64,000 bases of DNA from Acidobacteria bacterium UBA2990 (GTDB taxonomy: Bacteria; Acidobacteriota; Vicinamibacteria; Vicinamibacterales; UBA8438): assembly GCA_002347025.1 (NCBI GenBank), contig DEAE01000016.1:6877-70876 (forward strand), in the 5' to 3' direction. The notes under the pieces are model-generated. The model was not told where the DNA came from. It ran no database searches and saw only the letters and a list, made by a program, of their open reading frames with translations. Positions 39,700 to 58,352 of the stretch are shown here, one piece after another (within the stretch, counting starts at the first letter, position 1; every line of letters starts with the position of its first letter). The position numbers and the translations under genes were made by a program.

Positions 39700-40647
39700 T
39701 CATAACATCTTGATCCTAGCCACTAGTGAATCCCATCCCATAGCAGTGGACGCTGTTGCACGAGCATTGCCGGCAAGTGAACCTAGAATATCAGGTGACA
39801 CGGGCAGACCATCACACCGGTTGATATCGATCACATTATGCATATGCCCAAACACCTCTGGCGAATATTCATCAAGATTAGTAACAACGACTGCTCCACA
39901 GTCCATAGCTGCATTGACTGTTGTGTTGTTCGCGCGGACCCCTTTTTCAAAGAATGCCGTGAAAAAAGTTGTGTCGAGCAAATAGTTGTAGACCGCCGTG
40001 TCTGACAAATAGCCCAAGAAATAGATCTTGTTGCCATAGATTTTCTTCAACTCTTCAAACACCGCCGTAAAACTCTCATCGAAGGCGGTCCCTTCGTGGA
40101 GGGCCGTGGAGAGATACACCGAATAAGGCCGACCGGTCTTTTCGAGCAGGGCCTGGAACGTGCGGTGTAATTCCGGACGAACCTTATGAGCCATCCCAAA
40201 TGCAAACACCGAAATACCGTCCGACGCAAACCGCTGTGGTTCCAGTAGTGTCGATGGGCACCACAACTTCTCGACAGCGGCTCGGCGATTTCGCAGGCTG
40301 GCCACCAATTCGTCGTTCCCGCAAAATACCACTTCCGCCAGAGAGAGCAGCAGTTGCTCTGTTGGTGTTTCTGTCCACTCATGCAAGAAAAGCGCGAAGT
40401 GATCCCTCCACGGCGCAGTCTCTACAAGTGATGCAAGGGCCTCAGCATCGGCCTCCGCGAACTCAGAAATCTTGACAGACAGCAGAGGCCGCCGCAGCGC
40501 AGCTGCTCTATTATCAAACAAACCAAAGATCTGAACCTCCAGATGCCTGGCCAACATCACGTTAAACTTGGCAACGCCACATGTCAGCGGGTTCAAGTGG
40601 TAACCGACCACCCCATCGACATCACCACCGAACGCTGTTTCGCTCAC
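39700..40647 (-). CDS. hypothetical protein, possibly a divergent GT-B-like glycosyltransferase
   Basis: The product is 315 aa. The only hints are a C-terminal ..GVRANNTTVNAAMDCGAVVVTN.. segment resembling the EX7E region of GT4 enzymes, and ATGA coupling to the upstream gene. Confidence 0.35.
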   Translation of the reverse strand: MSETAFGGDVDGVVGYHLNPLTCGVAKFNVMLARHLEVQIFGLFDNRAAALRRPLLSVKISEFAEADAEALASLVETAPWRDHFALFLHEWTETPTEQLLLSLAEVVFCGNDELVASLRNRRAAVEKLWCPSTLLEPQRFASDGISVFAFGMAHKVRPELHRTFQALLEKTGRPYSVYLSTALHEGTAFDESFTAVFEELKKIYGNKIYFLGYLSDTAVYNYLLDTTFFTAFFEKGVRANNTTVNAAMDCGAVVVTNLDEYSPEVFGHMHNVIDINRCDGLPVSPDILGSLAGNARATASTAMGWDSLVARIKML

Positions 40648-41759
40648 CGTTGATTCTCCGGCTTTTCATAAACCAAGACGCGCCCTTTTCCCATCCAGTC
40701 AATTTTCGACTCAAGATCCTGACAACGACGAAAGCCTTCCAGCACAAACAGCACCCTCAAAAAATCCTTGTTGAGCAAAGTTATATGGGAAGGGTCAACC
40801 TCAAACTGGGTTGTCACATCCAGTAGTCCATTGGGGTCTGGGTGAAACCTCGTCGTGACATATACGTATCGGGAACTAATCCGACACAGATTTCTGACCG
40901 TCTCACGTACCTGCAAGACTGTAAGGTGTTCCATCACTTCGCGGCAGATAACAAGCTGGTAGGTATTGTCAGCAAACAGCTCAGGGTCGGCCGTGGTTCC
41001 CACTATAATCCGCTCTCTGACCTCAGGAGGGGCAAGATCGCGGCAGCTAGGGCTAAAATCGACGCCATCAGCCATAATGCCTTGCTCTTGCAGCAAATAC
41101 AGCAATACCCCTGGGCCACAGCCCACATCAAGCACGGATTCCGGTTGAAACACCTCCTTGACCACTTCCGGATGCCGCCCTTCGATCTTACGTCGAGCCT
41201 CGATCGTGTAGTCGTTATCTCCTTCTCGCCAATCACTGACAAAATACTCTGCATCATAGTGGGACGCCTGAACTGGCGCCTGCGAGCTCACAAGCTGCTC
41301 AAAGTCACAGACCTCACCGTCTGCGTCCCTCCCCAGTTGATACCGACGGAGTAATTCAGTCGAAGAGTCCAACACCGTGTCCAAGAACACGATCTCGATA
41401 CCATGTTCTACACAGATTCGGTCCTGTTCGGAAGGCAGGCGCCCCTGCCAGTCCTTCCCCTTGATGTAATGAGTTGGCCTGAGTTCTCTCAAAACCGTGC
41501 CGGTATCGCAATGGCTCACCATCGTATAGTCGATGACAGACAAGGCATCGATGACCAAGGCGCGCTCTGCACCACCCAGCAACGGAGGGTGTTTCGTAGC
41601 AACATAACTATCTGAAGCGATGTTGCACAATAACGGCATGCCAAGCGCACGAGCTTGCCTGAAATACTCAATATGTCCATGATGCAAAGGGTCAAATGCG
41701 CCGTCCACCATTGCGACACGGCCCCTATACTCTTTCAATTCATCAAATTCGAGAATCAT
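40644..41759 (-). CDS. fusion: HxGH cytidylyl/adenylyl-transferase (TagD / RfaE-domain-II-like) + class I SAM methyltransferase
   Basis: The N-terminus (VAMVDGAFDPLHHGHIEYFRQA..LG..L........D......K.......R...........VD.........KG.DW) is nucleotidyltransferase-like. The C-terminus has VLDVGCGPGVLL......G....GVDFS, methyltransferase motif I. Confidence 0.7.
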   Translation of the reverse strand: MILEFDELKEYRGRVAMVDGAFDPLHHGHIEYFRQARALGMPLLCNIASDSYVATKHPPLLGGAERALVIDALSVIDYTMVSHCDTGTVLRELRPTHYIKGKDWQGRLPSEQDRICVEHGIEIVFLDTVLDSSTELLRRYQLGRDADGEVCDFEQLVSSQAPVQASHYDAEYFVSDWREGDNDYTIEARRKIEGRHPEVVKEVFQPESVLDVGCGPGVLLYLLQEQGIMADGVDFSPSCRDLAPPEVRERIIVGTTADPELFADNTYQLVICREVMEHLTVLQVRETVRNLCRISSRYVYVTTRFHPDPNGLLDVTTQFEVDPSHITLLNKDFLRVLFVLEGFRRCQDLESKIDWMGKGRVLVYEKPENQR

Positions 41760-41777
41760 AAATAGTTTCTAATGCCT

Positions 41778-43997
41778 CTACGACAAGACACGCATGCGCG
41801 AGGCTAATGCAGGAGAGATAATCGGCTCCGCGATACCACTATCAGCCCCATCTAGTGTGTCACACAGCAACTCGACCATCGATAATTCCTTCACATCTAG
41901 AGTTACAAGGGAGGTGCCCAGATGCCTTGCCAAGCGTCGAGACACATCAAGATGAGTTGGCACCAGCTCGGCTTCATTCGAAAACAAACCGATAGTCGGC
42001 ACACCATAGAAGGGTCCAAGATAGGACAGCCCACCATATGTCCCAACAAATGCTCGAGACCGGGCAATAATCGAGCTTTGAACCTCAAGATTAGTCGTTG
42101 GCGTCATTAAGTGGTCGACCGTATGAATGCCCCTGCCGACTCCAGGATCGAAATCACGATGATCATCGACGCTCAAGCCAGTGTTCAGAAGTACCACGGG
42201 CATACGATTCGCTAGCCTCTTTATCATTCGAACAACTAGCCCGCGGTTTTCAGGCGTATCAGGAAATGATGGGCGAAAATAGAAACGGACCGCTATGAAT
42301 TTCTCTGGCAGGGTCTTGGCTAGAGCGTCGCCCCCAGTCGCAGGCATGGTCCGATAGACTGAATGCTTGTTTAATAAGCTAATCGCTCCTTTCTCATACC
42401 AGTAATAGCGGAGCAAACGATACATAATCGATGGATGTATAACGTTGACGTCGGTGAGACCGCGACGATTTTTTACAAGATTGACAATAAACTCATCGAA
42501 TGTTCCAGAAACCATCTGTTTTTGGTTGCCGCCGTCCCTCCATCTAGCATCATTGCGCTTACGGAACTGTTTCAGCGACATCATGCCGAAAATATCTTCG
42601 TGGTGCTCGGCAAAGTCTCGATACCAAGCGTGTGCGCCACCACGAGATACGACAATCAGCCGATCGCGGTCGATCTCGAATTCCTTGGTAGCCCACACCA
42701 GAAACGGAATCCAGTAAAGCACCTCAAAGCCAACCTCAGACAGCCATGGTCCGACAATGATCGGCCCTTGACCGCTCGAGGCAACTTTCAAAGCCTTTCG
42801 CATCGAGAAGACTTCAGGCCCGGATGGAACTTGATGAATTTCTTCGCGAGCCAACCAGGGAATCACCCAACCACGCATCAGTGGCAATGAAACCAAAATC
42901 CTGAGCAGAACACGACCTAGTGGAAAAGTTGCTGAACGAACCAAATCGCCCAACCTCACTCTCATGTCGCGCACGAACTTACGTCTCCCTTCATCCGTAG
43001 TAGCAACCTGCCGGCATTGTCTTTCAAGTTTTCCACAGAAGCGCATCGACCTTCTGAAAACACCTCGGCACTTTACATAAATCGGCTTCAAGAATGTTGC
43101 ATGCTCAAAGAGATCGACACGCAATTGCTTAAGTTGCTGCCTGGCATGCAGCAGACCAGCCAGCCATAGGTATCTAACACCAAACCTGAATCCAACAACA
43201 CGACCGATACGTGGGCAACATTGCCCGAGAACACCGAGGTTCCAACTCAGCACCGCAGCGTGGCCAATCCACCAAGGTAAGAATGCATACAAAGGCCGTC
43301 CATCGGGAAAGAACGCACGGCGTTGTCGTCCTAGACTAAAGATAGGACCATACCATCGCCTAAACCAAAGCACTTCTGGAACCTGCTGAAATTGTCCCTC
43401 AAGGGCAAGCTCCATCAGCAATAAGCGGTCCGGCACCAGCACCCGGCGAAAAACGCCGGCTCGTTTGATGGCGTCGGCTCTCCCTAGACCATAAATCATA
43501 TTGCCAGCGGACATATGCCTCATCGTCAACCGAAAACGGGTCCGGATATCATTAAGACCTACCGTCTCGAACATCCAAGGCTTCTTCTCGGTTAAACCAT
43601 CTGGTCCAATCCGATGGTTCTGGGGATATGCCAAAACCACGCCGGGTGATTGATCGAGAGCCCTAACAAGAACCTGTAACCAACGAGGATGCCAGATGTC
43701 GTGATCACTAGCCCAGGCAAAGTATTCCGCCGCAGGCACCTGCTCCATCGCCAAGCAGAACACTCGACGCCAATTGCCGATCATGCCCAAGCGCCTAGGG
43801 TTGCGGGAATACGTGATCCGTGAATCGTGTTTAGCGTATTCCTGAACGATATTTCCAGTCCCATCGGTCGACTGGTCGTCGACACACACAAGCCGGAAGT
43901 CCAGGAATGACTGGATCAGCAGTGATTCCAACGCTTCTGGCAGATCTTCAGCATGATTGTAAAGTGGTAGCCCAATGACGACTCGGGTCACACTCAT
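41778..43997 (-). CDS. fusion: GT2 (GT-A) glycosyltransferase + hydrophobic/basic linker + family-B GT9-like domain (B1, approx 41781..42770)
   Basis: The N-terminus (VVIGLPLYNHAEDLPEALESLL.QSF.DF.LVCVDD.STDGT, then ASDHD) is GT2-like. From about residue 405, GPIIVGPWLSEVGFEVLYWIPFL ... FIAVRFY ... FVGTYGGLSYLGPFYGVPTIGLFS matches the C-terminal domains of 47652..50348 and 50345..52219. Confidence 0.7.
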   Translation of the reverse strand: MSVTRVVIGLPLYNHAEDLPEALESLLIQSFLDFRLVCVDDQSTDGTGNIVQEYAKHDSRITYSRNPRRLGMIGNWRRVFCLAMEQVPAAEYFAWASDHDIWHPRWLQVLVRALDQSPGVVLAYPQNHRIGPDGLTEKKPWMFETVGLNDIRTRFRLTMRHMSAGNMIYGLGRADAIKRAGVFRRVLVPDRLLLMELALEGQFQQVPEVLWFRRWYGPIFSLGRQRRAFFPDGRPLYAFLPWWIGHAAVLSWNLGVLGQCCPRIGRVVGFRFGVRYLWLAGLLHARQQLKQLRVDLFEHATFLKPIYVKCRGVFRRSMRFCGKLERQCRQVATTDEGRRKFVRDMRVRLGDLVRSATFPLGRVLLRILVSLPLMRGWVIPWLAREEIHQVPSGPEVFSMRKALKVASSGQGPIIVGPWLSEVGFEVLYWIPFLVWATKEFEIDRDRLIVVSRGGAHAWYRDFAEHHEDIFGMMSLKQFRKRNDARWRDGGNQKQMVSGTFDEFIVNLVKNRRGLTDVNVIHPSIMYRLLRYYWYEKGAISLLNKHSVYRTMPATGGDALAKTLPEKFIAVRFYFRPSFPDTPENRGLVVRMIKRLANRMPVVLLNTGLSVDDHRDFDPGVGRGIHTVDHLMTPTTNLEVQSSIIARSRAFVGTYGGLSYLGPFYGVPTIGLFSNEAELVPTHLDVSRRLARHLGTSLVTLDVKELSMVELLCDTLDGADSGIAEPIISPALASRMRVLS

Positions 43998-45073
43998 AGC
44001 CTAACTCGACGCCACCCCACGACATGCTTATAGCCACTCTTTGGTAAATCGGCACCAGCGTCGAGCATCTTGGGATAACTGACCGGAAGCATCTTAACTT
44101 CATGCGGCCAGTAATATTCGCCAATTATCGAACGAACATTACTCAGTTCGCGATTGTGATGTGAGCGGTCACGGTTCAGGCTATAGAGATACGGACACTC
44201 TAGCTCGTAAGCATGGCGCACGTAGGCATGCACCTGCTGAGTAGTCATTTCCTGAAACGACACCATATTTAGCATCAAGTCGACCTGCTCTGGTTTCGAC
44301 TCAGCGTGGAACGTATCAGGAAGAAACACAAAATCAAATTCTTGCCAGTTATCGAAGGTTTCGCCAGCAGGAACCTCTCCGTAGAAGCGCACTCTAGCCT
44401 CAGGAAAAGCAGCCAACAGGTAGGTAGCTGAAAAAAGAAATAACTCCGGAAAATCAGTGATCACATAAGTTACATTGGGACACAAAGTCTTTAGCTGATA
44501 CGCAAACCCACCCCACCCAGCTCCAATCTCCCATACCAACCTTCGCTCAGTACTGTCACGAAACTCCGCAAGCACCGCTCCTGAATGCAGTGCGACCAGA
44601 ACCTCATAGAACTTCAGTGTGTCGATGTTGACAAGTTCACCATCGATTTCGAATCCGAATCCCCCCAGAAGAGGGGCTTCTGGCAACCACAAGTCAGCCT
44701 GATCTAGATCGCGAAGAGCCTCTAATTTTTCAGCAAACTGCTGGCGCTTCGTATCCAGACTAACCCTGTAATGCTGGGGCAGCAATCCCGTTAAGTTGTG
44801 CGTATGGTGCCTAAGCTGAGCAATCACCAACGGCGATGCATCCAGCATGTAATCAAACCTAGACAACTCACCAGACCAATAGTCACTCGGCACATGACCA
44901 CTGGACCTTCTGTTGTGCCCAAGAGCCAATTGGGCAATCACATGTCGGCGCACTCGAAGATATGCTTGATAAGCATGGGCATCCCGAGCCACCTGCAGGC
45001 GACGCTGCAGCTCTTTTTCCGCCAGGTCTGCCTTTGGCTCAGCGCCTGTCGTCATAGCACTCCGTTCTAACAA
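43994..45073 (-). CDS. putative class I SAM-dependent (sugar O-) methyltransferase
   Basis: VWEIGAGWGGFAYQL......V.YVITDFPE resembles a methyltransferase motif I plus an acidic post-I residue. The rest is unrecognised. It is ATGA-coupled to the GT2-B1 gene. Confidence 0.5.
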   Translation of the reverse strand: MLERSAMTTGAEPKADLAEKELQRRLQVARDAHAYQAYLRVRRHVIAQLALGHNRRSSGHVPSDYWSGELSRFDYMLDASPLVIAQLRHHTHNLTGLLPQHYRVSLDTKRQQFAEKLEALRDLDQADLWLPEAPLLGGFGFEIDGELVNIDTLKFYEVLVALHSGAVLAEFRDSTERRLVWEIGAGWGGFAYQLKTLCPNVTYVITDFPELFLFSATYLLAAFPEARVRFYGEVPAGETFDNWQEFDFVFLPDTFHAESKPEQVDLMLNMVSFQEMTTQQVHAYVRHAYELECPYLYSLNRDRSHHNRELSNVRSIIGEYYWPHEVKMLPVSYPKMLDAGADLPKSGYKHVVGWRRVRL

Positions 45074-45079
45074 AAACAG

Positions 45080-46708
45080 TCACCGAGGGTTCTGGCTCTG
45101 CTCTGATTGGGTCTTAGGCACATCACCGGATGCACTTACCGCATCTAACGCCGCCTTCGTCAATTGGGGTCGCTCTATCGTCCGAGACAAGCGGGGCAAG
45201 CGCCACTCCTGCTTAAGGCGTCCCCACCTGTTAATCATGAAACGAATCAACCGTTTCTTAAGCCTCTTGCGACTAGCTGCAAGCCCAATAGCCCACAAAA
45301 ACGCCTTAAGGGGGACGAGAAGCCCTGACACAGCGTCTGGCGGAATCGGCGCTACATGGTCTAGTCCCTCCAGCGCAGTTACGAACCGTGGTGTAGCGGG
45401 TACGTCAAATCCATGAGGCCTCACAAAGGCTTCAATGAATCGCCGACTTGAATGCGATCCACCAGTATCAATTATCGACACAAGCTGAGAGACGTGCTCA
45501 TCGAGGCTCGTCGCTCGTTGTAGATGTCCGCCATTCTCAGGCAGTAGATACTGGAAATGAAGAGTGCCAGTCTGTGTTCGGTCGAAAGAAGAGTCTATGA
45601 TTGTGAATACGGGTCGGTCTTGTATGCCGGCCTCAATCATTGCCGAGGTATTGATACCCACCACGGCCATACTGTGATGGAGGGTGTCGTAGTAATCGGC
45701 CCTGTCATCATCATCAACTGGGTTGGCACCTTGGTTCGGAAATACCACAACACTTCTATAACCTGTCAAATCAACATTCTGCCAATGGTTTGAATTATAG
45801 GGATGTGGCCTAATAAGGATCCCCAGTGTGCTCAGCGTTCCCGGTCCAAGACGGATCGCTTCAATCCACCGTTTCACGAACCGAACCTCAGTATCAGGGG
45901 CGGAAATCGAGGCCGTGGACCCAACAAAAACGATAAATGCTTCATCTACCGGAAGACCAACACGGCGGCAAAATCTTTCGCGAGACAGACGAGGCTTCCG
46001 ATCAAACCAACGATCAAAACACTGTGCGCCAGTAATAGCGATCCTGTCACCAGAAGCAGCATGAAACTCAATGGCCTCTCTCCGCTGATGGTGGTTCCAC
46101 AAAGTAACCAAATCCGGTTGAATACGCATGAGCCCCTTGGTCGTTAGGTGATCCCAAGAAGCGACGCCCAAGACGCTCGGTATCCCAACCCTCCTAGCCG
46201 ATTTAATCATATCGACCTGTGGACATTGATCGGTGACAAGAGGTGAGACAATAAGCACATCTGGGCTCACCTGTTGAAGAAACGAATCGAGATTCTTGTT
46301 ACTTGGAATCGCACGTTCACAAGCATCAAGCAAGGCAAGCAAGCGGCGAGTCTTACCTTCGGTGCTCATCTGCCACCGACCCAAGAATCGTGTCAAAGGA
46401 GGCAACACCTTACGCATTCGATTCCGCAGGTAGGGTGAGTCCGCAAAGCGAGGATGCAGATAGCGGATGTAATCCACTGTCCCACGTACACCACGAGCCA
46501 CTGGCTCCCAAACATCAGCTCGAACTGGAGTCCTACCCAGCACCTCGACCGCCCGGCCTGAGGCCTTAAATGCTGCAAGTCCTTCAGCCTGCTTGTGAGG
46601 TTGATCGAAGGCAACGGACACCTGGTGGCCGCGGGTCAATAGAGCCTCGACAACCGAATCAAAATAGCGCAGATAGCCTGGATACTGGAGGACAAACAAG
46701 AACTTCAT
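45080..46708 (-). CDS. family A paralog 1: uncharacterised GT-B-like transferase (542 aa) with basic C-terminal tail
   Basis: It starts MKFLFVLQYPGYLRYF.....L..RGHQV. Other motifs are GIPSVLGVASWDHLTTKG, FIVFVGSTAS, ILIRPHPYN, VVGINTSAMIEAGIQDRPVFTI and GTLHFQYLL. It is collinear with the N-terminal half of 47652..50348, and more distantly with 53069..54586. Confidence 0.6.
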   Translation of the reverse strand: MKFLFVLQYPGYLRYFDSVVEALLTRGHQVSVAFDQPHKQAEGLAAFKASGRAVEVLGRTPVRADVWEPVARGVRGTVDYIRYLHPRFADSPYLRNRMRKVLPPLTRFLGRWQMSTEGKTRRLLALLDACERAIPSNKNLDSFLQQVSPDVLIVSPLVTDQCPQVDMIKSARRVGIPSVLGVASWDHLTTKGLMRIQPDLVTLWNHHQRREAIEFHAASGDRIAITGAQCFDRWFDRKPRLSRERFCRRVGLPVDEAFIVFVGSTASISAPDTEVRFVKRWIEAIRLGPGTLSTLGILIRPHPYNSNHWQNVDLTGYRSVVVFPNQGANPVDDDDRADYYDTLHHSMAVVGINTSAMIEAGIQDRPVFTIIDSSFDRTQTGTLHFQYLLPENGGHLQRATSLDEHVSQLVSIIDTGGSHSSRRFIEAFVRPHGFDVPATPRFVTALEGLDHVAPIPPDAVSGLLVPLKAFLWAIGLAASRKRLKKRLIRFMINRWGRLKQEWRLPRLSRTIERPQLTKAALDAVSASGDVPKTQSEQSQNPR

Positions 46709-52253: not shown

Positions 52254-53072
52254 TCAACGCCTTGCCTGAGGCAGGCTCTGCACTGCCAGGGGCATAGCTC
52301 GTTGAAAAAACAAGTAGATGCCCCCAGCCAGCACAGCGAGAAGGGCAACACACATGAGGAAAAGCAAATCATTATCCGTGGCCCCACTAACAAGCCACCG
52401 CCGAGGAATGTTAATTAGATAAGTCAGTGGATTCCAACGGTTAACCACAGCCAGTAACCCCGTTTCTGGTTCCGCGTACAAAATAGGGGCCGTCCACAAC
52501 AGGACCGGAGCAAGCATTGGCAAACCGAAGCGAAAATCAAGGTAAACGAAGGTCAAGGGAACAAAACAAGCACCCACAATTAACCCACCCAAGACGATCA
52601 CGGGCAAGGCAAACACCCCCAGAGGTAGCGTCAAGGGTGGCGAAGCACTCGTCAGTAGGTAGGCAGATAAGAATAGCGCCCCATAAAACATCGAGTTAAA
52701 CAACACAAGTCCAGCACCGGCCGTCAGCACTGCCTCAGGACGCAATGGACCATCAACGAATGTCCGGCGCAGTCGTCTGCCGAGCCACTGCGGAGCGATG
52801 ACGGCGTCCCAGAACATCTGCCACAGTAAGAATCCGCTCAAAGCGTAAAGCACATACTCACCTGCACTCATATCACCACCGAAACCAAAGGCATTGCCTA
52901 CTAGAATCAACGGTAATACCGCCATCAAAGGACGAGCAATAGCCCATACGTATTTCAGAAAAGCCTGCCGATAGCGCGCGCGAAAATCCCTCAGGAAAAG
53001 CAGTCGTCCGACGAAAACTAATTGCCTCACACTCGATTGCTGGGTCGACTGACATCTCCAATGCTTATTCAT
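52254..53072 (-). CDS. ABC-2-type polysaccharide exporter permease (Wzm/TagG/KpsM-like)
   Basis: F.RDFRARYRQ.FL...WA...PL, followed by 6 hydrophobic segments, is typical of ABC-2 permeases. The start is reset to the ATG at 53072 (MNKHW..), which forms an ATGA with the stop of 53069..54586. The track start at 53120 would overlap by 52 nt. Confidence 0.75.
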   Translation of the reverse strand: MNKHWRCQSTQQSSVRQLVFVGRLLFLRDFRARYRQAFLKYVWAIARPLMAVLPLILVGNAFGFGGDMSAGEYVLYALSGFLLWQMFWDAVIAPQWLGRRLRRTFVDGPLRPEAVLTAGAGLVLFNSMFYGALFLSAYLLTSASPPLTLPLGVFALPVIVLGGLIVGACFVPLTFVYLDFRFGLPMLAPVLLWTAPILYAEPETGLLAVVNRWNPLTYLINIPRRWLVSGATDNDLLFLMCVALLAVLAGGIYLFFQRAMPLAVQSLPQARR

Positions 53073-54586
53073 GATTCGTTGCCCCACGCTGTTGTCTGTC
53101 GCAACGTACGGAGGACCCACCCAGCCAGACGTTCACTCGCACCACCAGCAGGAACTCCACAACAACGATGGACCAATTCACATCTCGCTTCCTCATCCTT
53201 ACTTGGGTCCACCAGATAGGAACGTACTAACTCGATTAGATCGCCTGGGCTTGTTGCAATACGAGCCGCTTGAGTCTCAACTACCGCCTGGTAGTGCTCG
53301 TACTGATAATACCGACTAATTGACAATGGTAAATCCAAGTTCGGCACCTCATCGTAGCCAACATTGACCACGGGAGTATCGAACAGGGCTGCTTCTATTG
53401 TCGTAGTCGATGCGAAATTCACGATGACGTCACTGTGCGCTAAAGTGCCAGCCAGACGACGACGGTCGCCGATGTCCGGCGTGAAAGCATCAAAGTAATG
53501 TACGCCAGGCCCACACTGAAGCCGGTGGAACGGCTTTTCCACAAACACCCGGTGCCCATCATGAAGACCTTGATACGACTCAGTGGCATCCCTGGGGTGG
53601 ACTCGCACAAGCAGCTGGACATCAGTCCCCAACTTGCTGTCTCTTGCCGCTGCAACCAAGGTTTCCACGACTTTCTCTGTGGTTGGGTACACCGGGGCAG
53701 GGGCGCTTGCTAAAGTCACTAATGGCCTTGCCGGGTCAGCCCCAAAAGCTCTAAAAAACTCCTGCCTCGTCGGAATGGTGTCACCCTGGCTATACACATC
53801 AAACGACACTGGTCCTGTGACCGCCACGCGATCGGGATGAAACCCGTGATAACGAACCGCCTCGGTCCGCATGGTCTCATTCCATACAGCCAAATGGTCA
53901 ACAGGGAGAACGGTGTGGTATTTGGATGAGAGATTGTCCCACCCAAGATCGACTCCCATTTGGGGCACACCAAAGGCCTTGGCTGCATAAATAAGCGGTA
54001 CCTCCAGGGGAAGGAATCCTGCAGTGGAAGTCACCAACATTACCGGCCGATAGGTTTCGAATAGACTTCGGTAACCTTCTAGATTAGTTATAGCCTGCGC
54101 TAGACGAAACCACCTACTCCGCGATAGCGGTAGGCGGCAAACGACTGCCTTGATCGCACTTAACAATTTCCGTCCACGCCACCCATCGAGCAATCTGGCC
54201 CGATCACGCTGAAGGCGAACCGCACGCAGCTTAGACTCCAGAAGAAATTTCTCGCTCAGGATAGAATCGACCACCCGCTCGAGGATTCCTGGTCTGAACT
54301 CAGGTAACGGCAGACAAATCACACCGGCACATTTGAGTTCGTTGGCCAGCCGGTCGTCTGAAGCGAACGGCGACAAGACTGCAATTCTTAGACTCGGCCG
54401 CGCATCAAGCAGGAAACGGAGAAACGACCCGCGAGCTAGGTCGGCCACATGGTGACCAGCCGGCACTGACAAAAAGATCGTCGACTGGCCGACTCGTGGA
54501 CCAGACAAAGAGTGATCTAATAGCCCTTCTATCGTCTCTTTCGTTGGTCCTATCGGCAAGCTCGAAGTGACCATCATAGGATGCAA
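53069..54586 (-). CDS. family A paralog 3 (divergent): uncharacterised GT-B-like transferase, 505 aa
   Basis: GVPQMGVDLGWDNLSSKY, AVWNE..R.EAV.YHGF..DRV.VTGPV.FD, LLVRVHPRD and VIVNFASTTTIEAALFDTPVVNV are collinear with the A1/A2 motifs. Confidence 0.55.
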   Translation of the reverse strand: MHPMMVTSSLPIGPTKETIEGLLDHSLSGPRVGQSTIFLSVPAGHHVADLARGSFLRFLLDARPSLRIAVLSPFASDDRLANELKCAGVICLPLPEFRPGILERVVDSILSEKFLLESKLRAVRLQRDRARLLDGWRGRKLLSAIKAVVCRLPLSRSRWFRLAQAITNLEGYRSLFETYRPVMLVTSTAGFLPLEVPLIYAAKAFGVPQMGVDLGWDNLSSKYHTVLPVDHLAVWNETMRTEAVRYHGFHPDRVAVTGPVSFDVYSQGDTIPTRQEFFRAFGADPARPLVTLASAPAPVYPTTEKVVETLVAAARDSKLGTDVQLLVRVHPRDATESYQGLHDGHRVFVEKPFHRLQCGPGVHYFDAFTPDIGDRRRLAGTLAHSDVIVNFASTTTIEAALFDTPVVNVGYDEVPNLDLPLSISRYYQYEHYQAVVETQAARIATSPGDLIELVRSYLVDPSKDEEARCELVHRCCGVPAGGASERLAGWVLRTLRQTTAWGNES

Positions 54587-54587
54587 G

Positions 54588-55088
54588 TTACGTCTTTGCT
54601 TGTGCGATCAAGTCGCAGACTTCACGCACAGCGCCGTAGCCCCCCATCCGCGAAGTAATGAATTGGGCAACGTCCTGTACTTCAGGATAAGCATCAGCTA
54701 CACAAATCGAAATGCCAACATTTCGCAGACAGTCCAGATCGTTGACATCGTTACCAACATAAGCCACGGCCCTCAGATCAAGCCCACGCTCTGTAATAAT
54801 TGTTCGAAGGGTCGCCCATTTGGTATCACCAAGGCCTTGTTTACACTCTAGTTGTAGCTTCGTAGCACGAGCCGATACAACAGGATTGGTCTCTGTTGAC
54901 AGAACCATACAATCGACGCCGACCCGACCTAACATCTGCACACCTAGCCCATCCGACCTGGAACAATAAACAGATTCCCGGCCATCTTCTCCGACTAAAA
55001 CTCGGTTGTCCGTGAACACCCCATCAAAGTCAAAAACAACGAAGGTAACCGCACTGAGGTGATCCTTTGTGATTGGTATAGCCATCAT
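54588..55088 (-). CDS. KdsC-family HAD phosphatase (ulosonate-phosphate phosphatase)
   Basis: It has VVFDFDGVFTDN (the DxD nucleophile motif), ....DG.G...L...G......ST......V..RA..L and YVGNDVND, typical of Kdo-8-P / Kdn-9-P phosphatases. Confidence 0.8.
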   Translation of the reverse strand: MMAIPITKDHLSAVTFVVFDFDGVFTDNRVLVGEDGRESVYCSRSDGLGVQMLGRVGVDCMVLSTETNPVVSARATKLQLECKQGLGDTKWATLRTIITERGLDLRAVAYVGNDVNDLDCLRNVGISICVADAYPEVQDVAQFITSRMGGYGAVREVCDLIAQAKT

Positions 55089-55297
55089 TCGGACCGAACT
55101 TGATGAATCTTGGCCCTACCAGTCTTAAAACGGATGGTGCCGACATGCCTAGATCCAAAATTCGAACCAAGCAGAACATCAGTCATACCACCCCGCATAA
55201 TCTGACGCAGCCGCCTGAAACCGGCCAAAAGAAAGTAAATTTCCCCTCCCGCCATCAAGTAGCACGCTGACTCGCCCTTTGCCGACCCGACGCCCAT
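55085..55297 (-). CDS. possible small ORF translationally coupled to the KdsC-like gene (up to 70 aa; very uncertain)
   Basis: The only support is that its TGA overlaps the kdsC-like ATG as ATGA (55085..55088), and that it lies in an otherwise unexplained 387-bp gap. It has no recognisable motif. Confidence 0.2.
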   Translation of the reverse strand: MGVGSAKGESACYLMAGGEIYFLLAGFRRLRQIMRGGMTDVLLGSNFGSRHVGTIRFKTGRAKIHQVRSE

Positions 55298-55475
55298 GGC
55301 TCCCGGCCAACTTTGCCGACGAATTTTCTCGGTGAAGCCTCTGAGAGGGAAAACTGATCAGGGGATACAGGGGTAACAGCCAACAAGTTGAACAAATTTT
55401 ACAGTATGGCACGGCGGCGATCAATATGCATCACCTGCTGGTATCACTACCTAGGACACCGACAGTCTGGCCAAA

Positions 55476-56441
55476 TCACACTTCGAACTCGACAAGCGGT
55501 AGGTTGGCGGCCGCCACATATTTGTAGATGTCCTCTTGTTTCCTACGCATCCAAACGTCGTAACGCTTTAGCAGTCTAAAAGCATCAGCTGGGCTACAAG
55601 CTGGAATCTCTGCACCGACATCATTACGGAGAAAATAAGCATTTACCCCGGTGGGCTCAGTTGCTACTAGTCGATACCCTTTAGCAGCACCGAGTTTAGC
55701 CAGAGCCGCTAGCGAAGCACCATAGTAAACAAATCGATGCTTATGCACGTCAAATTGTGGATCGTAGGGAATCGTAACGGCTCGGTCTGGTCCAAAAGCA
55801 GAATTGTATTCCACGACAACGACCCTCGGCGAACAAGCTGTTACAGCCTCCCAAACCCAATAATCATTCCCATCAAGATCGATACTCATAAAATCGATCT
55901 CGCCATCCAGTCCAGCATTGGCAATCAACTCGTTAATGTTTTCACGGGTAATCCAGGCACCTAACGCGACCACGCCAGGAAAACGCCGACCAACTTGCAC
56001 CATCCGCTCTTTATCACCATCAAGCATCAACCCTGTCCACCCCAACTCACTTGCGAGACAGGCTGAATTACCTCCACTCAGGCCAGACCCTACTTCCACG
56101 AACCGACGATTAGTTGAACCAATCTGTTCAAAGATCGCCAATGTGATGCCATCCTCTTCGTTTTGAGAGTTCAGACGATACCTACGAACCATTAAACGCT
56201 GAGGGTAGGGCAGGCTTTCTGAATCCAAGTGGTGCATACGAAGGACAGCCTGCACGTCCGGACCCAACCGCGAGACCCGTCGAGACACCTTCATCAAAAC
56301 CGTAGTCATTGCCTGCTGCTCAGTCTCGAGGGTTTCCAACCTCTTGTTGGCTGCGGTCAATTCCAAACGCAGGAGGCGAATCTCATCTAGCAACTCTTGA
56401 TAAGCACGGCCGGTCTCCACATCTTCATCCTCAATCATCAC
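55476..56441 (-). CDS. family C paralog 3: coiled coil + FkbM-like methyltransferase-like domain
   Basis: It shows SQNEEDGITLAIF..IG.TNRRFVEVGSGLSGGNSACL....GWTGLMLDG ... IDFMSIDLDGNDYWVWEAV. It is ATGA-coupled to the upstream 133-aa gene. Confidence 0.6.
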   Translation of the reverse strand: MMIEDEDVETGRAYQELLDEIRLLRLELTAANKRLETLETEQQAMTTVLMKVSRRVSRLGPDVQAVLRMHHLDSESLPYPQRLMVRRYRLNSQNEEDGITLAIFEQIGSTNRRFVEVGSGLSGGNSACLASELGWTGLMLDGDKERMVQVGRRFPGVVALGAWITRENINELIANAGLDGEIDFMSIDLDGNDYWVWEAVTACSPRVVVVEYNSAFGPDRAVTIPYDPQFDVHKHRFVYYGASLAALAKLGAAKGYRLVATEPTGVNAYFLRNDVGAEIPACSPADAFRLLKRYDVWMRRKQEDIYKYVAAANLPLVEFEV

Positions 56442-56839
56442 GATTTTAACTTTCGAGCCAGGTCAGCCTCTAAGTCAACATGGCGACGCACCCCTGTGAG
56501 CTCCTTGGCTGCCCTGTCCAAACGACTTTTAACTGCCAGTGCTTGCGATCGAAATGCCGCCGTTACAAGTGACAGATCAGACAACAGCAGCCCGTGAATT
56601 AATACTTCATCAGCCTCAAACGAAGGTCCTTCACCGAGCTGGACAGCCAGACGCCCTGCACGTTGTAACAAAGGCTCAAGCACAGGTTCCATCTCCCGAC
56701 ACATCGTAGCGTCAGGTTCGTCCGGCATAGCAATGGAGTTAGCAACCCGGACTGCACGAATAGCAGACCGGAGCCTGCAGTCCAATGCCTCAAGACGTTG
56801 TTCCAGTGTATTCGCAGCCATCGGACTAGCAAGATTCAA
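56438..56839 (-). CDS. hypothetical alpha-helical / coiled-coil protein (133 aa), first gene of the minus-strand supercluster
   Basis: The sequence is heptad-like and Leu/Arg/Ala-rich. It overlaps family C paralog 3 by 4 nt and has no enzymatic motif. Confidence 0.45.
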   Translation of the reverse strand: MNLASPMAANTLEQRLEALDCRLRSAIRAVRVANSIAMPDEPDATMCREMEPVLEPLLQRAGRLAVQLGEGPSFEADEVLIHGLLLSDLSLVTAAFRSQALAVKSRLDRAAKELTGVRRHVDLEADLARKLKS

Positions 56840-56950
56840 GCTAGGGTTGGTTGGGTTTCATCTTAAGCCAACGTGCGATTTTACCCCCAACGTCAATTCA
56901 AACGGCATGAAAATTGTTGCACCGAACCTACTGTGCCGATATCGTAGAGA

Positions 56951-57397
56951 GTGCTGGCAGTTGCCCAACCCATAGCAATGATTTCAGACTTTCTGGCGCT
57001 CTTTGGGCTGACATCACTAAGGCAGCTACATGCTGCCACTGCTCGAGCAGACGAACTCAAGGCTCGCGCCACCGCCTTGCAGGAGCGGCTCGAAGCAACC
57101 AAGCAAGACTCCGAACGCTGGAAACGGAAGAGTCAGCAGACTGCCGCTCGACTAGATTCAGCGAACAAGGAAGCCGAACGGTGGAAACAAAAAGACGCCG
57201 GACACCTCACCGAACTTAGCCGACTCAGTCGCGCCGAGAAATTAACCAAGCTGGCTCGAGAGCACCTATTGCTAATGGAAACCAAGCTAGACGTCATGGA
57301 AGGAGCCATAACAGTGCTCGATCGGCGAACTCGAAGCCAAAAAGAGCCGAGCAAAGTAGCTATAACGGAACCACCAGCCAATACCCACCGTGACTGA
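56951..57397 (+). CDS. hypothetical coiled-coil protein (148 aa; start could be Met at 56978)
   Basis: It contains a long charged helix, ELKARATALQERLEATKQDSERWKRKSQQTAARLDSANKEAERWKQKDAG..., with an internal ERWK(R/Q)K repeat. It is divergent from the 133-aa gene and overlaps the next gene (GTGACTGA). Confidence 0.5.
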   Translation: MLAVAQPIAMISDFLALFGLTSLRQLHAATARADELKARATALQERLEATKQDSERWKRKSQQTAARLDSANKEAERWKQKDAGHLTELSRLSRAEKLTKLAREHLLLMETKLDVMEGAITVLDRRTRSQKEPSKVAITEPPANTHRD

Positions 57398-58352
57398 CAC
57401 ACCTTTTCTCAGCATCGTCGTCACTGGCCGAAACGACGACTACGGGGGGCAGTTCGCTAGGCGCTTCATTCGTGCCCTCACCTTCAACATCGAGCAACTT
57501 GCCAACCAGAATTTGTCTGCCGAAATCCTTCTTGTTGAATGGAGTCCGGTTCCAGGCCGGCGATTACTCGCGGAAGAGGTCTTAACTTTTTTGCCGCCAT
57601 GGTGCCACAAATGGTTCACTAGCTTCATAGTCGATAGCCGATATCAAGAGGCCCTTAGCCTCAATCCAAACCTGGGGTATCTCGAATACATTGCAAAGAA
57701 TGTCGGCATCCGACGAGCCAAAGGCCACCTGATCCTAGCCACCAATACTGACATTTTGTTCAGCTCAGCCCTCATCAGCAAGATGTCGGCAGGTCAATTA
57801 ATCGATGGTCGAGTCTATCGAGCTAACAGGATCGACCTCAAACTTGGCATCGATGAAAGCAGGCTCCATAACGATTTGCTCGACAATCCAAATAACCACG
57901 TTCCTCGCACACCGATCAAGCCACCGCTCTATGCAGGTGCTGCAGGTGACTTCATCCTCCTCGACCGAGAGACTTTGAAACGGCTACGTGGGTTTAACGA
58001 GGTTTATCGAATGGCCCGTTTCGGTGTGGACCACAACTTCCTTATAAAAGCACGCTCTTCTGGGATACCCATCGAAGACATTGAAGCCCCCGTCTACCAT
58101 ATTAGCCACACCACGAGTTTCCAAGTTGCGAAACATATCGCAACCCCTAAGCAAGCCGAGCGCCTCTGGGGCTCCAAGTGGCACAACCATAACGTTATCT
58201 ACGACAACCCGGAAGAATGGGGACTAGGCAACGCGCCTGTCACAAGGATCGGAGAACGAATCTGGCAGATAGATTTTGACTGGATATCGGTTGCTCCCTT
58301 AACGGACTTACGGCGCATCGTGCTAGCCGACGTCCCCGAATTAAATTGCTGA
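57390..58352 (+). CDS. GT-A-fold glycosyltransferase-like protein (GT2-like)
   Basis: FLSIVVTGRND.....F.RRF...L......Q........EILLVEW.P, then ATNTDILFS and GDFILLDRETLKRLRGFNE, resemble GT-A enzymes with a C-terminal galactosyltransferase-type segment. It has a GTG start. Confidence 0.5.
   Translation: MTDTPFLSIVVTGRNDDYGGQFARRFIRALTFNIEQLANQNLSAEILLVEWSPVPGRRLLAEEVLTFLPPWCHKWFTSFIVDSRYQEALSLNPNLGYLEYIAKNVGIRRAKGHLILATNTDILFSSALISKMSAGQLIDGRVYRANRIDLKLGIDESRLHNDLLDNPNNHVPRTPIKPPLYAGAAGDFILLDRETLKRLRGFNEVYRMARFGVDHNFLIKARSSGIPIEDIEAPVYHISHTTSFQVAKHIATPKQAERLWGSKWHNHNVIYDNPEEWGLGNAPVTRIGERIWQIDFDWISVAPLTDLRRIVLADVPELNC

What the first reader, a model, noticed from the sequence alone, without database searches (positions are those of the whole stretch)
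39700..58352. Main candidate for an undescribed system: a glycan-polymer machine assembled combinatorially from three recurrent, uncharacterised modules around a crippled ABC ATPase
Within 18.6 kb, almost every protein is either unrecognisable or a fusion. The same three building blocks recur.

**Family A (about 480 aa, GT-B-like).**
- Motifs are MK(F/I)(L/F)F....PG.LR.F, G(I/V)(P/R)...(G/C)V.SWD(N/H)LT.KG, a V(T/Y)(L/V)WN....(R/H)EA(I/V)E.H segment, (I/V)RPHP(Y/Q)N, VVG(I/V)NTSA.IEAG...RPVFTI and GTLHF.YLL.
- Copies: 45080..46708 stand-alone, 48930..50348 fused, and 53069..54586 divergent.

**Family B (about 310-335 aa).**
- It begins (G/R)P(I/L)I(V/I)GP(W/C)LS(E/D)VG.E.LYW.PF and ends (F/Y)(V/I)G(T/N)(Y/F)G(G/S)(L/I)S.L.PFY.V(P/R)(T/S)...F, a layout reminiscent of GT9 heptosyltransferase-type GT-B enzymes.
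- It never occurs alone. It is fused to a GT2 domain (41778..43997), to a family A domain (47652..50348) and to the Wzt-like ABC ATPase (50345..52219).

**Family C.** This is the coiled-coil plus FkbM-like module.

**Other components.** Around these sit a TagD/RfaE-II-like nucleotidyltransferase-methyltransferase fusion, another methyltransferase-like protein, an ABC-2 permease, two small coiled-coil proteins and a GT-A-like protein.

**Interpretation.** The xHP and NTS motifs of family A resemble the HP and S-S/T motifs of CMP/CDP-dependent GT-B transferases (the TagF, KpsS/KpsC and sialyltransferase types). That would fit the CMP-ulosonate and HxGH nucleotidyltransferase genes in the locus. 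I cannot name a characterised system with this architecture. The domain shuffling suggests physically coupled polymerisation, capping and export.
Basis: partly seen in the sequence, partly recalled or inferred. Interest (0 to 1): 0.85.

Follow-up and report, generated by a model that had tools for sequence, protein, structure and literature searches.

The report
Surface-sugar gene cluster with dead exporter ATPase
This is the polymer-building and export part of a surface-polysaccharide gene cluster from an uncultured marine Acidobacterium, built from two large unnamed enzyme families, and its exporter's ATP-burning subunit has lost its catalytic residues and is fused to one of those enzymes.

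Summary
BLASTP confirms three paralogous families at the stated coordinates, and the ABC ATPase lacks the Q-loop Gln, the signature motif, the catalytic Glu and the H-loop His.

- **Family A** has a GT-B fold. It is a remote branch of the TagF/TagB (Glyphos_transf) superfamily, with weak matches to the Tannerella nonulosonate-transferase family.
- **Family B** has a GT-B fold closest to GT9 heptosyltransferases. No Pfam, NCBIfam or PDB sequence model recognises it.
- **Family C** is a short heptad-repeat segment plus a divergent FkbM-type methyltransferase.

The cluster is not a one-off. The same gene set, with NeuB, a CMP-ulosonate synthetase and an HxGH nucleotidyltransferase-methyltransferase, recurs in about 150 fetched loci, mostly Vicinamibacterales. 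The fusions are stable and old, not freshly shuffled.

Soil sister loci carry a canonical Wzt (with a weak Wzt_C match) plus Wzm. In 20 related loci plus this window, Wzm sits beside a pseudo-ATPase-B fusion instead, and the two forms never co-occur. The pseudo-domain is under purifying selection.

Verdict: this is an ABC-transporter-type glycan assembly line, so a known kind, with undescribed glycosyltransferase families and a new pseudo-ATPase-glycosyltransferase fusion. How export is powered is open.

The parts
39700..40647 (-). Conserved 315-aa protein of unknown family ('u315'). It always lies between the nucleotidyltransferase-methyltransferase gene and neuB.
   Evidence: No Pfam, NCBIfam or PDB hit. 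Seven orthologues show 61% mean column identity. Synteny is shown.
40644..41759 (-). Fusion of an HxGH nucleotidyltransferase (RfaE domain II / TagD-like, aa 7-135) with a class I SAM methyltransferase (aa 189-343).
   Evidence: CTP_transf_like 5.9e-10 and Methyltransf_23 4.1e-14. rfaE_dom_II 7.9e-20 and TagD 2.3e-6. Relatives appear in 37 and 34 ORFs of the related loci.
41778..43997 (-). GT2 (GT-A) glycosyltransferase at the N-terminus, fused through a partly hydrophobic linker to family B copy B1 (about 41844-42881).
   Evidence: Glycos_transf_2 2.1e-23 for aa 9-135. B1 vs B2 E=4e-81. The GT2-B architecture recurs in 22 and 20 ORFs.
43994..45073 (-). NanM-type putative sugar O-methyltransferase.
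   Evidence: TIGR04371 2.8e-24, 86 bits against a cutoff of 44.
45080..46708 (-). Family A copy A1, stand-alone. GT-B fold with an RPHP motif and a C-terminal long helix containing a hydrophobic stretch (aa about 459-478).
   Evidence: AF2 model pLDDT 87.6. Foldseek places it among GT-B/epimerase_2 folds at E=5e-11. At least 2950 homologues have no Pfam domain.
46705..47655 (-). Family C copy C1: an N-terminal heptad-repeat segment (aa about 21-48) plus a divergent FkbM-type methyltransferase domain.
   Evidence: PF05050 6e-5, 23.7 bits against a cutoff of 22.7. 10 of 23 family members hit PF05050.
47652..50348 (-). A2-B2 fusion: family A (about 48930-50348), two hydrophobic helices, then family B (about 47736-48900). 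It resembles a bifunctional polymerase.
   Evidence: BLASTP. The exact 898-aa protein is found on Tara contigs. The A-B architecture occurs in 86 and 46 ORFs, and in 41 of 42 long genome loci. B2 model pLDDT is 90.7.
50345..52219 (-). Pseudo-NBD-B3 fusion: a degenerate Wzt/TagH-type ABC nucleotide-binding domain (about 51434-52087) fused to family B copy B3 (about 50357-51358).
   Evidence: The TarH alignment and motif tables are. About 22 deep-branching full-length relatives were found. dN/dS of the pseudo-NBD is 0.05-0.21. It is never found with a canonical Wzt.
52254..53120 (-). Wzm/KpsM-like ABC-2 permease with about 6 hydrophobic segments.
   Evidence: NF050053 KpsM 5e-6, below cutoff. 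It lies directly beside the pseudo-NBD-B gene in 14 of the 16 related loci that hold sequence there, 13 times upstream.
53069..54586 (-). Family A copy A3, the divergent copy that is closest to the TagF/TagB and BFO_1060 families.
   Evidence: NF046086 2e-12 and TIGR04396 5e-7. 25 of 33 orthologues hit PF04464, best 1.1e-9. hhalign against family A gives E=3.9e-61.
54588..55088 (-). KdsC / Kdn-9-phosphate-phosphatase-type HAD phosphatase, part of the ulosonic acid pathway.
   Evidence: KdsC NF007019 4.9e-32 and Kdn-9-P phosphatase NF058599 7.5e-25.
55476..56441 (-). Family C copy C2.
   Evidence: 46% identity to C1, E=2e-64. Heptad segment at aa about 19-60.
56438..56839 (-). Small 133-aa helical protein with a heptad segment. 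It is the first gene of the minus-strand cluster and is conserved upstream of C2 in the type 1 loci.
   Evidence: No family hit. Orthologues occur in L005, L007, L010, L042, L086 and L134.
57390..58352 (+). Divergently transcribed, conserved 320-aa protein of unknown family.
   Evidence: No Pfam, NCBIfam or PDB hit. hhalign against the GT2 domain is negative. It is syntenic in 9 and 3 loci.
26564..27628 (-).
   Evidence: phmmer hit. 40% identity to C1 in alignment A3.
25503..26567 (-). WecA/MraY-family polyprenyl-phosphate sugar-phosphate transferase, the likely initiating enzyme of the same cluster.
   Evidence: TIGR02380 8.3e-30, below cutoff.
33196..39560 (-). Ulosonic acid supply genes: transketolase-like, CMP-ulosonate synthetase (35230-36006), aldehyde dehydrogenase, SDR and NeuB-type synthase (38466-39560).
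   Evidence: The same set sits next to Wzm and pseudo-NBD-B in the 34-39% GC contigs L082 and L083.

Best explanation
**What it is.** The segment is the polymerisation, modification and export half of a roughly 35-kb, single-strand gene cluster (about 22.3-56.8 kb). The cluster builds a lipid-linked surface polysaccharide of the O-antigen or capsule type. The polysaccharide contains a CMP-activated Kdo/Kdn-like ulosonic acid. The host is a marine Acidobacterium, probably of the Vicinamibacteria.

**Shown here.**
- Family A and family B are GT-B-fold proteins.
- A is a distant branch of the TagF/TagB superfamily and carries an invariant RPHP motif.
- B is closest in fold to GT9.
- Both families are tightly linked in many genomes to neuB, a CMP-ulosonate synthetase and an HxGH nucleotidyltransferase.
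- The Wzm-like permease is paired with a degenerate but selectively maintained NBD fused to B.
- Sister loci have a canonical Wzt with a weak Wzt_C match.

**Inferred.**
- The chain is started on polyprenyl phosphate by the WecA-like enzyme and GT4 adaptors upstream.
- It is extended at the cytoplasmic face by membrane-associated A enzymes. Their donors would have a CMP or CDP leaving group, either CMP-ulosonate or a CDP-activated unit made by the HxGH enzyme.
- B enzymes (GT9-like) and the GT2 domain also extend the chain.
- The A-B fusion would work as a two-site co-polymerase, like TagF-like/GT-B capsule polymerases.
- The NanM-type, NT-fused and family C methyltransferases would modify or cap the chain.
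- The Wzm and pseudo-NBD-B pair would sit at the export site and hold a B transferase at the channel entrance.
- Because the NBD cannot hydrolyse ATP in the usual way, it probably serves as a docking or nucleotide-sensing module. The energy source for export in this lineage is unresolved.
For: - **Paralogy:**
- **Folds:** the B model has pLDDT 90.7 and its top PDB matches are GT9 enzymes (3tov 1.4e-7, WaaC, WaaF, TibC). The A model has pLDDT 87.6 and matches GT-B/UDP-GlcNAc 2-epimerase folds at 5e-11, target TM 0.62-0.68.
- **A and TagF/BFO_1060:** NF046086 at 2e-12, 7e-6 and 1e-5. 25 of 33 A3 orthologues hit PF04464. hhalign of A against the A3 orthologues gives probability 100, E=3.9e-61. 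The RPHP and SWD motifs are conserved in 171 domains.
- **Co-occurrence:** of 42 genome loci of at least 18 kb fetched with B, 42 have A, 41 have A-B, 30 have NeuB, 19 have a CMP-synthetase and 19 have the NT-MT. Gene order is conserved.
- **Pathway context:** WecA-like enzyme, GT4s, CMP-synthetase, NeuB and a KdsC-type phosphatase.
- **Exporter:** motif loss is documented. Canonical Wzt (FSSGM/LLADE/VSHD, Wzt_C 1.1e-5) plus an ABC2_membrane permease occur in sister loci. The 20 pseudo-NBD-B loci and 17 canonical-Wzt loci do not overlap. dN/dS of the pseudo-NBD is 0.05-0.21.
- **Known analogue:** TagF-like/GT-B capsule polymerases (PMC5974469).
Against: - No donor, acceptor or product is known, and no enzyme of family A or B has been assayed.
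- A1 and A2 themselves do not reach significance against PF04464. Their BFO_1060 scores (25-47 bits) are far below the 200-bit cutoff.
- TagF itself was not among the top 50 structural matches of A. Those were mostly epimerases, so an enzymatic role other than transfer is not formally excluded.
- B's structural E-values for GT9 (1e-7 to 1e-4, TM about 0.45) are only modestly better than for other GT-B folds.
- With both composite ATP sites degenerate, a homodimeric exporter should not hydrolyse ATP. The 'export' role of this Wzm pair is therefore not established.
- A canonical Wzt elsewhere in the genome could not be checked.
- The window's permease is recognised only weakly (KpsM 5e-6, no Pfam hit).
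Confidence: 0.6

Rival explanations
1. This is a teichoic-acid-like phosphodiester polymer machine. Family A enzymes are polyol- or sugar-phosphate transferases, that is, true TagF-type enzymes. They would use a CDP-activated substrate made by the TagD/RfaE-II-like nucleotidyltransferase. B and GT2 would add the glycosyl part, giving a poly(glycosyl-X-phosphate) as in TagF-like/GT-B capsule polymerases. The ulosonic acid would be only a side chain or cap.
For: - PF04464 hits in 25 of 33 A3 orthologues, and a faint hit for A2.
- An HxGH nucleotidyltransferase with a TagD match lies in the locus and in 37 and 34 related ORFs.
- The order A followed by GT-B is the same as in Cps3D and Cps7D.
Against: - neuB and CMP-synthetase genes are the most constant neighbours. 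In type 3 loci a CMP-synthetase gene directly precedes A genes.
- The nucleotidyltransferase scores better as RfaE domain II (7.9e-20) than as TagD (2.3e-6).
- The five TagF active-site motifs and the second catalytic His were not demonstrated in A.
Confidence: 0.25
2. The pseudo-NBD-B protein is only an adaptor. The real energy comes from a canonical Wzt encoded elsewhere in the genome. The pseudo-NBD either forms a heterodimer with that Wzt or recruits the B transferase to the Wzm/Wzt complex.
For: - Only 64 kb of this genome and about 10 kb of flank at the other loci could be examined.
- The pseudo-NBD is conserved and sits next to Wzm.
Against: - None of the 20 related pseudo-NBD-B loci, nor this window, has a canonical ABC ATPase in the sequence held. 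In sister loci the canonical Wzt occupies the equivalent position next to Wzm.
- In a heterodimer, one site would lack the signature motif and the other would lack the catalytic Glu and His. Both sites would be impaired. This is an inference from the motif table.
Confidence: 0.3
3. The degenerate ATPase is decay: a dying exporter gene in a cluster that is no longer functional.
For: Four catalytic motifs are lost. Some distant relatives have even lost Walker A.
Against: - The reading frame is intact.
- The same architecture is conserved from 33% to 71% GC genomes.
- dN/dS of the pseudo-NBD is 0.05-0.21, as low as or lower than that of the B domain.
- pNBD identity among orthologues (46-57%) is at least as high as that of B (42-50%).
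Confidence: 0.03

Closest known systems
ABC-transporter-dependent O-antigen assembly with terminal capping (E. coli O8/O9a WbdA/WbdD/Wzm/Wzt; Aquifex WzmWzt)
   Same: - A WecA-type initiator.
- Cytoplasmic polymerisation by multidomain glycosyltransferases.
- Methyltransferases with heptad segments as candidate terminators.
- An ABC-2 permease.
- Soil sister loci have a canonical Wzt with a C-terminal domain weakly matching Wzt_C.
   Different: - In this lineage the NBD has lost the Q-loop Gln, the signature motif, the catalytic Glu and the H-loop His.
- It carries a GT-B transferase instead of the carbohydrate-binding module.
- The polymerising enzymes belong to undescribed families.
- The heptad segments are short, about 4-6 heptads. 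They are unlike WbdD's long ruler.
TagF-like/GT-B group 2 capsule polymerases (Cps3D, Cps7D; PMC5974469) and the Hib Bcs3 multi-enzyme polymerase (PMC10299916)
   Same: - An N-terminal TagF-superfamily domain is followed by a C-terminal GT-B glycosyltransferase on one chain.
- They sit in an ABC-transporter-type locus with a nucleotidyltransferase for the activated donor.
- GT-A/TagF-type combinations also exist, recalling the mixed GT2, A and B fusions seen here.
   Different: - Family A is too distant for PF04464 to detect in A1 and A2.
- The GT-B partner there is TarM-like, whereas B is closest to GT9.
- No TPR domain was detected by Pfam.
- The constant genomic partners here are neuB and a CMP-ulosonate synthetase, not glycerol-phosphate genes.
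Tannerella forsythia pseudaminic/legionaminic acid transferases (Tanf_01245, TFUB4_00887; NCBIfam NF046086 'BFO_1060 family'; PMC5420450)
   Same: - A GT-B/TagB-superfamily protein with an HP motif.
- Encoded next to a CMP-nonulosonate pathway.
- All three A copies give weak NF046086 hits.
   Different: - Scores of 25-47 bits are far below the 200-bit family cutoff.
- A proteins are longer, with a C-terminal hydrophobic helix.
- They are multi-copy and fused to B.
- The Tannerella enzymes add a single terminal residue to a protein O-glycan.
GT9 heptosyltransferases (WaaC, WaaF, TibC)
   Same: - The best full-length structural matches of B.
- The N-terminal G-P...E...P and C-terminal G..GG.S..AP.GVP layout resembles GT9 motifs (sequence).
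- An RfaE-II-like nucleotidyltransferase is in the locus.
   Different: - No PF01075 hit at any threshold.
- About 12% identity and TM about 0.45.
- No heptose pathway genes (GmhA, HldE kinase) were seen in the window.

Membership tests
Wzt/KpsT/TagH-type ABC exporter ATPase | Walker A P-loop | tested here: met
   GAAGSGKTT aligns with the TarH and Wzt P-loop. It is lost in some distant relatives.
Wzt/KpsT/TagH-type ABC exporter ATPase | Q-loop Gln, signature (Y/F)SSG(M/Q), Walker B Asp-Glu and H-loop His | tested here: not met
   The changes are Q to F, YSSGM to PKERG, DE to DG and H to S relative to TarH. The same loss occurs in every one of the 22 representatives and all locus copies. Sister-locus Wzt proteins keep FSSGM/LLADE/VSHD.
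Wzt/KpsT/TagH-type ABC exporter ATPase | C-terminal carbohydrate-binding domain (Wzt_C), in the cap-dependent subclass | tested here: not met
   The C-terminal 330 aa are a family B GT-B domain. Sister-locus Wzt proteins have weak Wzt_C matches, 1.1e-5 and 3.5e-4.
ABC-transporter-dependent polysaccharide pathway | ABC-2 (Wzm/KpsM) permease next to the NBD gene | tested here: inconclusive
   KpsM NF050053 at 5e-6, 26.7 bits against a cutoff of 300. There is no Pfam hit. About 6 hydrophobic segments are present. The sister-locus permease hits ABC2_membrane at 8.5e-12.
ABC-transporter-dependent polysaccharide pathway | Polyprenyl-phosphate initiating transferase and cytoplasmic glycosyltransferases in one cluster, with no Wzx flippase | tested here: met
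   A WecA-like enzyme at 8.3e-30, GT4s and a GT2 are present. No flippase family was hit among the ORFs scanned. A weak Wzy_C hit at 22290-24353 is noted.
TagF/TagB family (Pfam PF04464 Glyphos_transf) | Significant match to the family profile | tested here: inconclusive
   A1 and A3 have no hit, and A2 scores E=0.017. However, 25 of 33 A3 orthologues hit, best 1.1e-9. A is linked to the A3 orthologues by hhalign at E=3.9e-61.
TagF/TagB family (Pfam PF04464 Glyphos_transf) | Five active-site motifs with two catalytic histidines (PMC5974469) | not tested
   Only one invariant His in an RPHP motif was established. No alignment to TagF itself could be made with the sequences held.
BFO_1060 family nonulosonate transferases (NF046086) | Score above the curated cutoff of 200 bits | tested here: not met
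   The scores are 25.3, 24.6 and 47.0 bits. This is a remote resemblance only.
GT9 heptosyltransferases | Sequence match to PF01075 or to solved GT9 chains | tested here: not met
   No Pfam hit at E<=10. No PDB sequence hit with a single sequence or a profile.
GT9 heptosyltransferases | GT-B fold superposing best on GT9 structures | tested here: met
   Foldseek gives 3tov at 1.4e-7, 2h1h at 1.2e-5 and 1psw at 1.6e-5. Query TM is 0.44-0.46, against 0.27-0.37 for other GT-B hits.
FkbM methyltransferases (PF05050) | Match above the gathering score | tested here: met
   C1 scores 23.7 bits against 22.7. 10 of 23 family members hit, best 8.8e-7. C2 alone does not hit, E=0.14.
WbdD/WbbB-type coiled-coil chain terminators | Long coiled coil acting as a ruler, plus a terminating enzyme domain that interacts with the polymerase | not testable with these tools
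   Only a crude heptad score was computed. It shows short segments of about 28-40 aa at the N-termini of C1, C2 and C3.

The most novel reading that the evidence does not exclude
In the lineages carrying the pseudo-NBD-B fusion, the Wzm permease no longer works as an ATP-driven pump. The catalytically dead NBD would dock a glycosyltransferase on the channel mouth. Chain growth, or binding of nucleotide-sugar or nucleotide, would then drive or gate translocation of the lipid-linked polymer. That would be a synthase-like, polymerisation-coupled exporter that evolved from an ABC transporter.
Probability: 0.15. Interest if true: 0.85.

Novelty: new variant of a known kind. Interest (0 to 1): 0.6.

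Why it matters
- **Uncharted enzyme families.** Family A has at least 2950 clusters at 90% identity and family B at least 1295. These are lower bounds. Neither has a Pfam, NCBIfam or solved-structure relative by sequence. Both are the core of a surface-glycan locus that is widespread in Vicinamibacterales and other uncultured soil and marine bacteria. Their glycans are unknown.
- **Genetic link to ulosonic acids.** They are linked to an unusual ulosonic acid pathway. Few ulosonate transferases have been characterised.
- **A natural experiment.** The replacement of Wzt by a conserved, catalytically dead NBD fused to a transferase bears directly on how ABC-type glycan exporters couple synthesis, end-recognition and energy use.
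- **A built-in comparison.** The sister loci with a canonical Wzt provide a ready-made control.

Tried and rejected
- **PDB sequence searches found nothing.** Single-sequence and profile searches for A, B, C, u315 and the 320-aa protein gave no hits.
- **Pfam at E<=10 on A and B domains.** Only a faint Glyphos_transf hit for A2.
- **hhalign of the 320-aa protein profile against the GT2 domain.** No relation, so 'GT-A-like' is not supported.
- **Literature searches.** Searches for Acidobacteria/Vicinamibacter nonulosonic acid transferases and for degenerate Wzt-glycosyltransferase fusions found no description.
- **First metagenome scan.** It used the full 23-sequence fusion alignment and failed because no stretch was conserved enough. 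It was repeated with a closer subset.
- **Pseudogene decay of the ATPase.** Rejected by dN/dS.
- **B3 as an inactive binding module.** Considered, but B3 keeps all 23 invariant columns of the family alignment.
- **Family A as a NeuC-like epimerase of the sugar pathway.** Considered because epimerases top the structural matches. Judged unlikely for these reasons:
  - there are 3-5 copies per locus;
  - the copies are fused to B;
  - they carry a hydrophobic C-terminal helix;
  - they are linked to TagF and BFO_1060.
- **Orthology of the stand-alone B of soil loci with B3.** Not supported by BLAST.

Full report
**Origin and layout.**
- The A2-B2 protein is found identically on Tara Oceans contigs and in the marine MAG GCA_002722875.1.
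- The closest related loci are Acidobacteria/Vicinamibacteria MAGs.
- From 56839 down to about 22290, all genes lie on the minus strand with short gaps. G+C is even at 0.51-0.56.
- The finding therefore covers the upstream half of one long cluster. The downstream half encodes the following:
  - a WecA-like initiator (25503-26567);
  - GT4 enzymes;
  - an AsnB-type amidotransferase;
  - a transketolase-like protein;
  - a CMP-ulosonate synthetase (35230-36006);
  - an aldehyde dehydrogenase;
  - an SDR;
  - NeuB (38466-39560).

**Checking the observation.**
- All-vs-all BLASTP confirms the three families with E-values from 1e-13 to 7e-113.
- Pfam recognises the GT2 domain, the nucleotidyltransferase-methyltransferase, a marginal FkbM domain in C1, and only the first third of the ABC domain. 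It finds nothing in A or B.
- A third C copy lies at 26564-27628.

**Family B.**
- 1295 homologues were found, all unnamed and without Pfam domains. Many are stand-alone proteins of about 330-430 aa.
- A 58-sequence alignment has 23 invariant columns, all kept by B1, B2 and B3.
- The AlphaFold model (pLDDT 90.7) is a two-Rossmann GT-B fold.
- Its best PDB matches are GT9 enzymes: 3tov at 1.4e-7, plus WaaC, WaaF and TibC. TM is about 0.45, modestly ahead of epimerases and GT1 enzymes.
- Sequence searches of the PDB and Pfam are negative.

**Family A.**
- At least 2950 homologues were found, typically 520-540 aa and highly conserved. Again none has a name or a Pfam domain. Longer forms of 800-940 aa are A-B fusions, or fusions to an O-methyltransferase or a GT4 domain.
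- The model (pLDDT 87.6) is GT-B, followed by a long C-terminal helix (462-510). A hydrophobic stretch (aa about 459-478) lies at the start of that helix.
- The top structural matches are UDP-GlcNAc 2-epimerases and assorted GT-B transferases.
- NCBIfam gives weak hits to the BFO_1060 family and, for A3, to TIGR04396. The BFO_1060 family comprises the Tannerella pseudaminic/legionaminic acid transferases, which carry HP and D/E-D/E-G motifs (PMC5420450).
- Orthologues of A3 bridge to a known family. 25 of 33 hit PF04464 (TagF/TagB), best 1.1e-9, and 4 hit Epimerase_2.
- hhalign links the A family to the A3 group at E=3.9e-61 over 394 columns. One caveat is that the A alignment contained the window's A3 as one of its 50 rows.
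- The RPHP, SWD, WN..Q..EA, NT[ST]A..E and G.LHF motifs are conserved in 171 A domains.
- A is thus a remote, unmodelled branch of the TagF/TagB superfamily.

**Family C.**
- 10 of 23 members reach PF05050 (FkbM), best 8.8e-7.
- Each copy starts with a short heptad-repeat segment by a crude score.
- There is no PDB relative by sequence.

**The ATPase.**
- The N-terminal 260 aa of 50345-52219 match Wzt, TagH/TarH and ABCA NBDs at 1e-11 to 1e-14.
- In the TarH alignment, the Q-loop Gln, the signature motif, the catalytic Glu and the H-loop His are all replaced.
- An exhaustive search of 1.84 billion representatives found about 22 full-length NBD-B fusions of 600-660 aa at 22-45% identity. All lack the signature motif and the H-loop His. 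The residue after the Walker B Asp varies (G, D, N, E). Four have also lost the Walker A consensus.
- No other ABC ATPase is present in the 64-kb window.
- The pseudo-NBD is at least as conserved as B among orthologues.
- Its dN/dS is 0.05-0.21 in four informative pairs. A fifth, near-identical pair gave about 0.9 from very few substitutions and is uninformative. It is a maintained, non-catalytic domain.

**Comparative survey.**
- A B-profile scan of 185,579 species genomes gave 470 matches. The best 80 are almost all Acidobacteriota/Vicinamibacterales.
- A second scan of metagenomes gave 549 matches.
- Local HMM annotation of the 160 fetched loci shows recurrent architectures:

| Architecture | Genome set | Metagenome set |
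|---|---|---|
| A alone | 112 | 38 |
| B alone | 88 | 63 |
| A-B | 86 | 46 |
| GT2-B | 22 | 20 |
| pseudo-NBD-B | 15 | 9 |

- The constant neighbours are NeuB, a CMP-synthetase, the NT-MT, a NanM-type methyltransferase and family C.
- Of 42 long genome loci, 42 have A, 41 have A-B and 30 have NeuB.
- Three layouts recur:
  - **Type 1** (this window, other marine Acidobacteria and Vicinamibacterales MAGs, and metagenome contigs of 33-71% GC): Wzm | pseudo-NBD-B | A-B | C | A | NanM | GT2-B | NT-MT | u315 | NeuB and onward.
  - **Type 2** (mostly soil): C | canonical Wzt | Wzm | A-B | B | C | A and onward.
  - **Type 3:** CMP-synthetase | A | GT2 | A | A-B | NeuB ... CMP-synthetase | B | B ... 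NT, MT.
- Type 2 Wzt proteins keep FSSGM, LLADE and VSHD, and have a weak Wzt_C match. Their permease hits ABC2_membrane.
- The 20 pseudo-NBD-B loci and the 17 canonical-Wzt loci do not overlap. The permease lies directly beside the fusion gene in 14 of the 16 related loci that hold sequence there, 13 times upstream.
- B domains cluster by fusion partner, so the fusions are ancient.

**Interpretation.**
- The locus fits the ABC-transporter-dependent pathway for lipid-linked polysaccharides.
- The nearest described analogues of the A-B protein are the TagF-like/GT-B capsule polymerases, in which two active sites on one chain alternate to build the repeat (PMC5974469).
- The donor of A (CMP-ulosonate or a CDP-activated unit) and the donor of B cannot be decided from sequence.
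- The supply genes point to a non-aminated Kdo/Kdn-like acid: NeuB, a KdsC/Kdn-9-P-type phosphatase and a CMP-synthetase, with no aminotransferase among the genes scanned. A transketolase, an SDR and an aldehyde dehydrogenase may further modify it.
- The new element is the pseudo-NBD-B fusion, which takes the place of Wzt and its binding module.
- Its most economical reading is a docking module that places a transferase at the Wzm channel. How translocation is powered is unknown.

**Verdict.** The feature is real and widespread. It is a new variant of a known kind, containing two undescribed GT-B families and a previously undescribed pseudo-ATPase-transferase fusion.

Noticed in passing
window 24358-25500 (-): A geranylgeranyl-reductase-family flavoprotein (TIGR02032 1.5e-30) lies next to the WecA-like initiating transferase. 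It could saturate the polyprenol carrier, giving a dolichol-like lipid. That would be unusual in bacteria.
   Followed up: no
   Followed up: partly
window 33196-39560 and 54588-55088; also L082 and L083: A transketolase-like protein, aldehyde dehydrogenase, SDR, NeuB, KdsC/Kdn-9-P-type phosphatase and CMP-synthetase travel together next to Wzm and pseudo-NBD-B, even in 34-39% GC contigs. No aminotransferase was seen. This suggests an unusual non-aminated ulosonic acid, possibly an oxidised dicarboxylic one.
   Followed up: partly
window 39700-40647 (-): A 315-aa protein has no Pfam, NCBIfam or PDB relative but is strongly conserved (61% mean column identity, many invariant His, Cys, Asp and Asn). 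It always lies between the nucleotidyltransferase-methyltransferase gene and neuB.
   Followed up: partly
window 57390-58352 (+): A divergently transcribed, conserved 320-aa protein has no detectable family. The GT-A reading is not supported by hhalign against the GT2 domain.
   Followed up: partly
window 22290-24353 (-) and 7979-9202 (+): A 687-aa protein has a weak Wzy_C/O-antigen-ligase match (3e-4) at the distal end of the cluster. A clear Wzy_C-family protein (3.4e-19) lies 13 kb away. These are candidates for ligation of the polymer to a lipid A-core.
   Followed up: no
window 27663-33177 (-): An AsnB-type amidotransferase resembles the XrtA/PEP-CTERM-system enzyme (TIGR03108 5e-190, below cutoff). 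It is flanked by stp2-like GT4 glycosyltransferases.
   Followed up: no
L029:4861-5805 and L044:4895-5821: Soil sister loci carry a 2OG-Fe(II) oxygenase (PF13640 5.9e-18 in L029; the L044 copy was judged by sequence similarity only) just upstream of the canonical Wzt. It is absent from the window.
   Followed up: no
window 13690-20623 (-), 11824-13206 (+): A Na+-translocating NADH:quinone reductase (NQR) operon with ApbE, and selenocysteine synthase SelA, lie upstream. This is ordinary housekeeping context.
   Followed up: no
window 55179-55424 (-): An 81-aa ORF lies in the gap between the phosphatase gene and C2. It has an odd composition and no homologues among the syntenic loci, so it is probably not a gene.
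   Followed up: no
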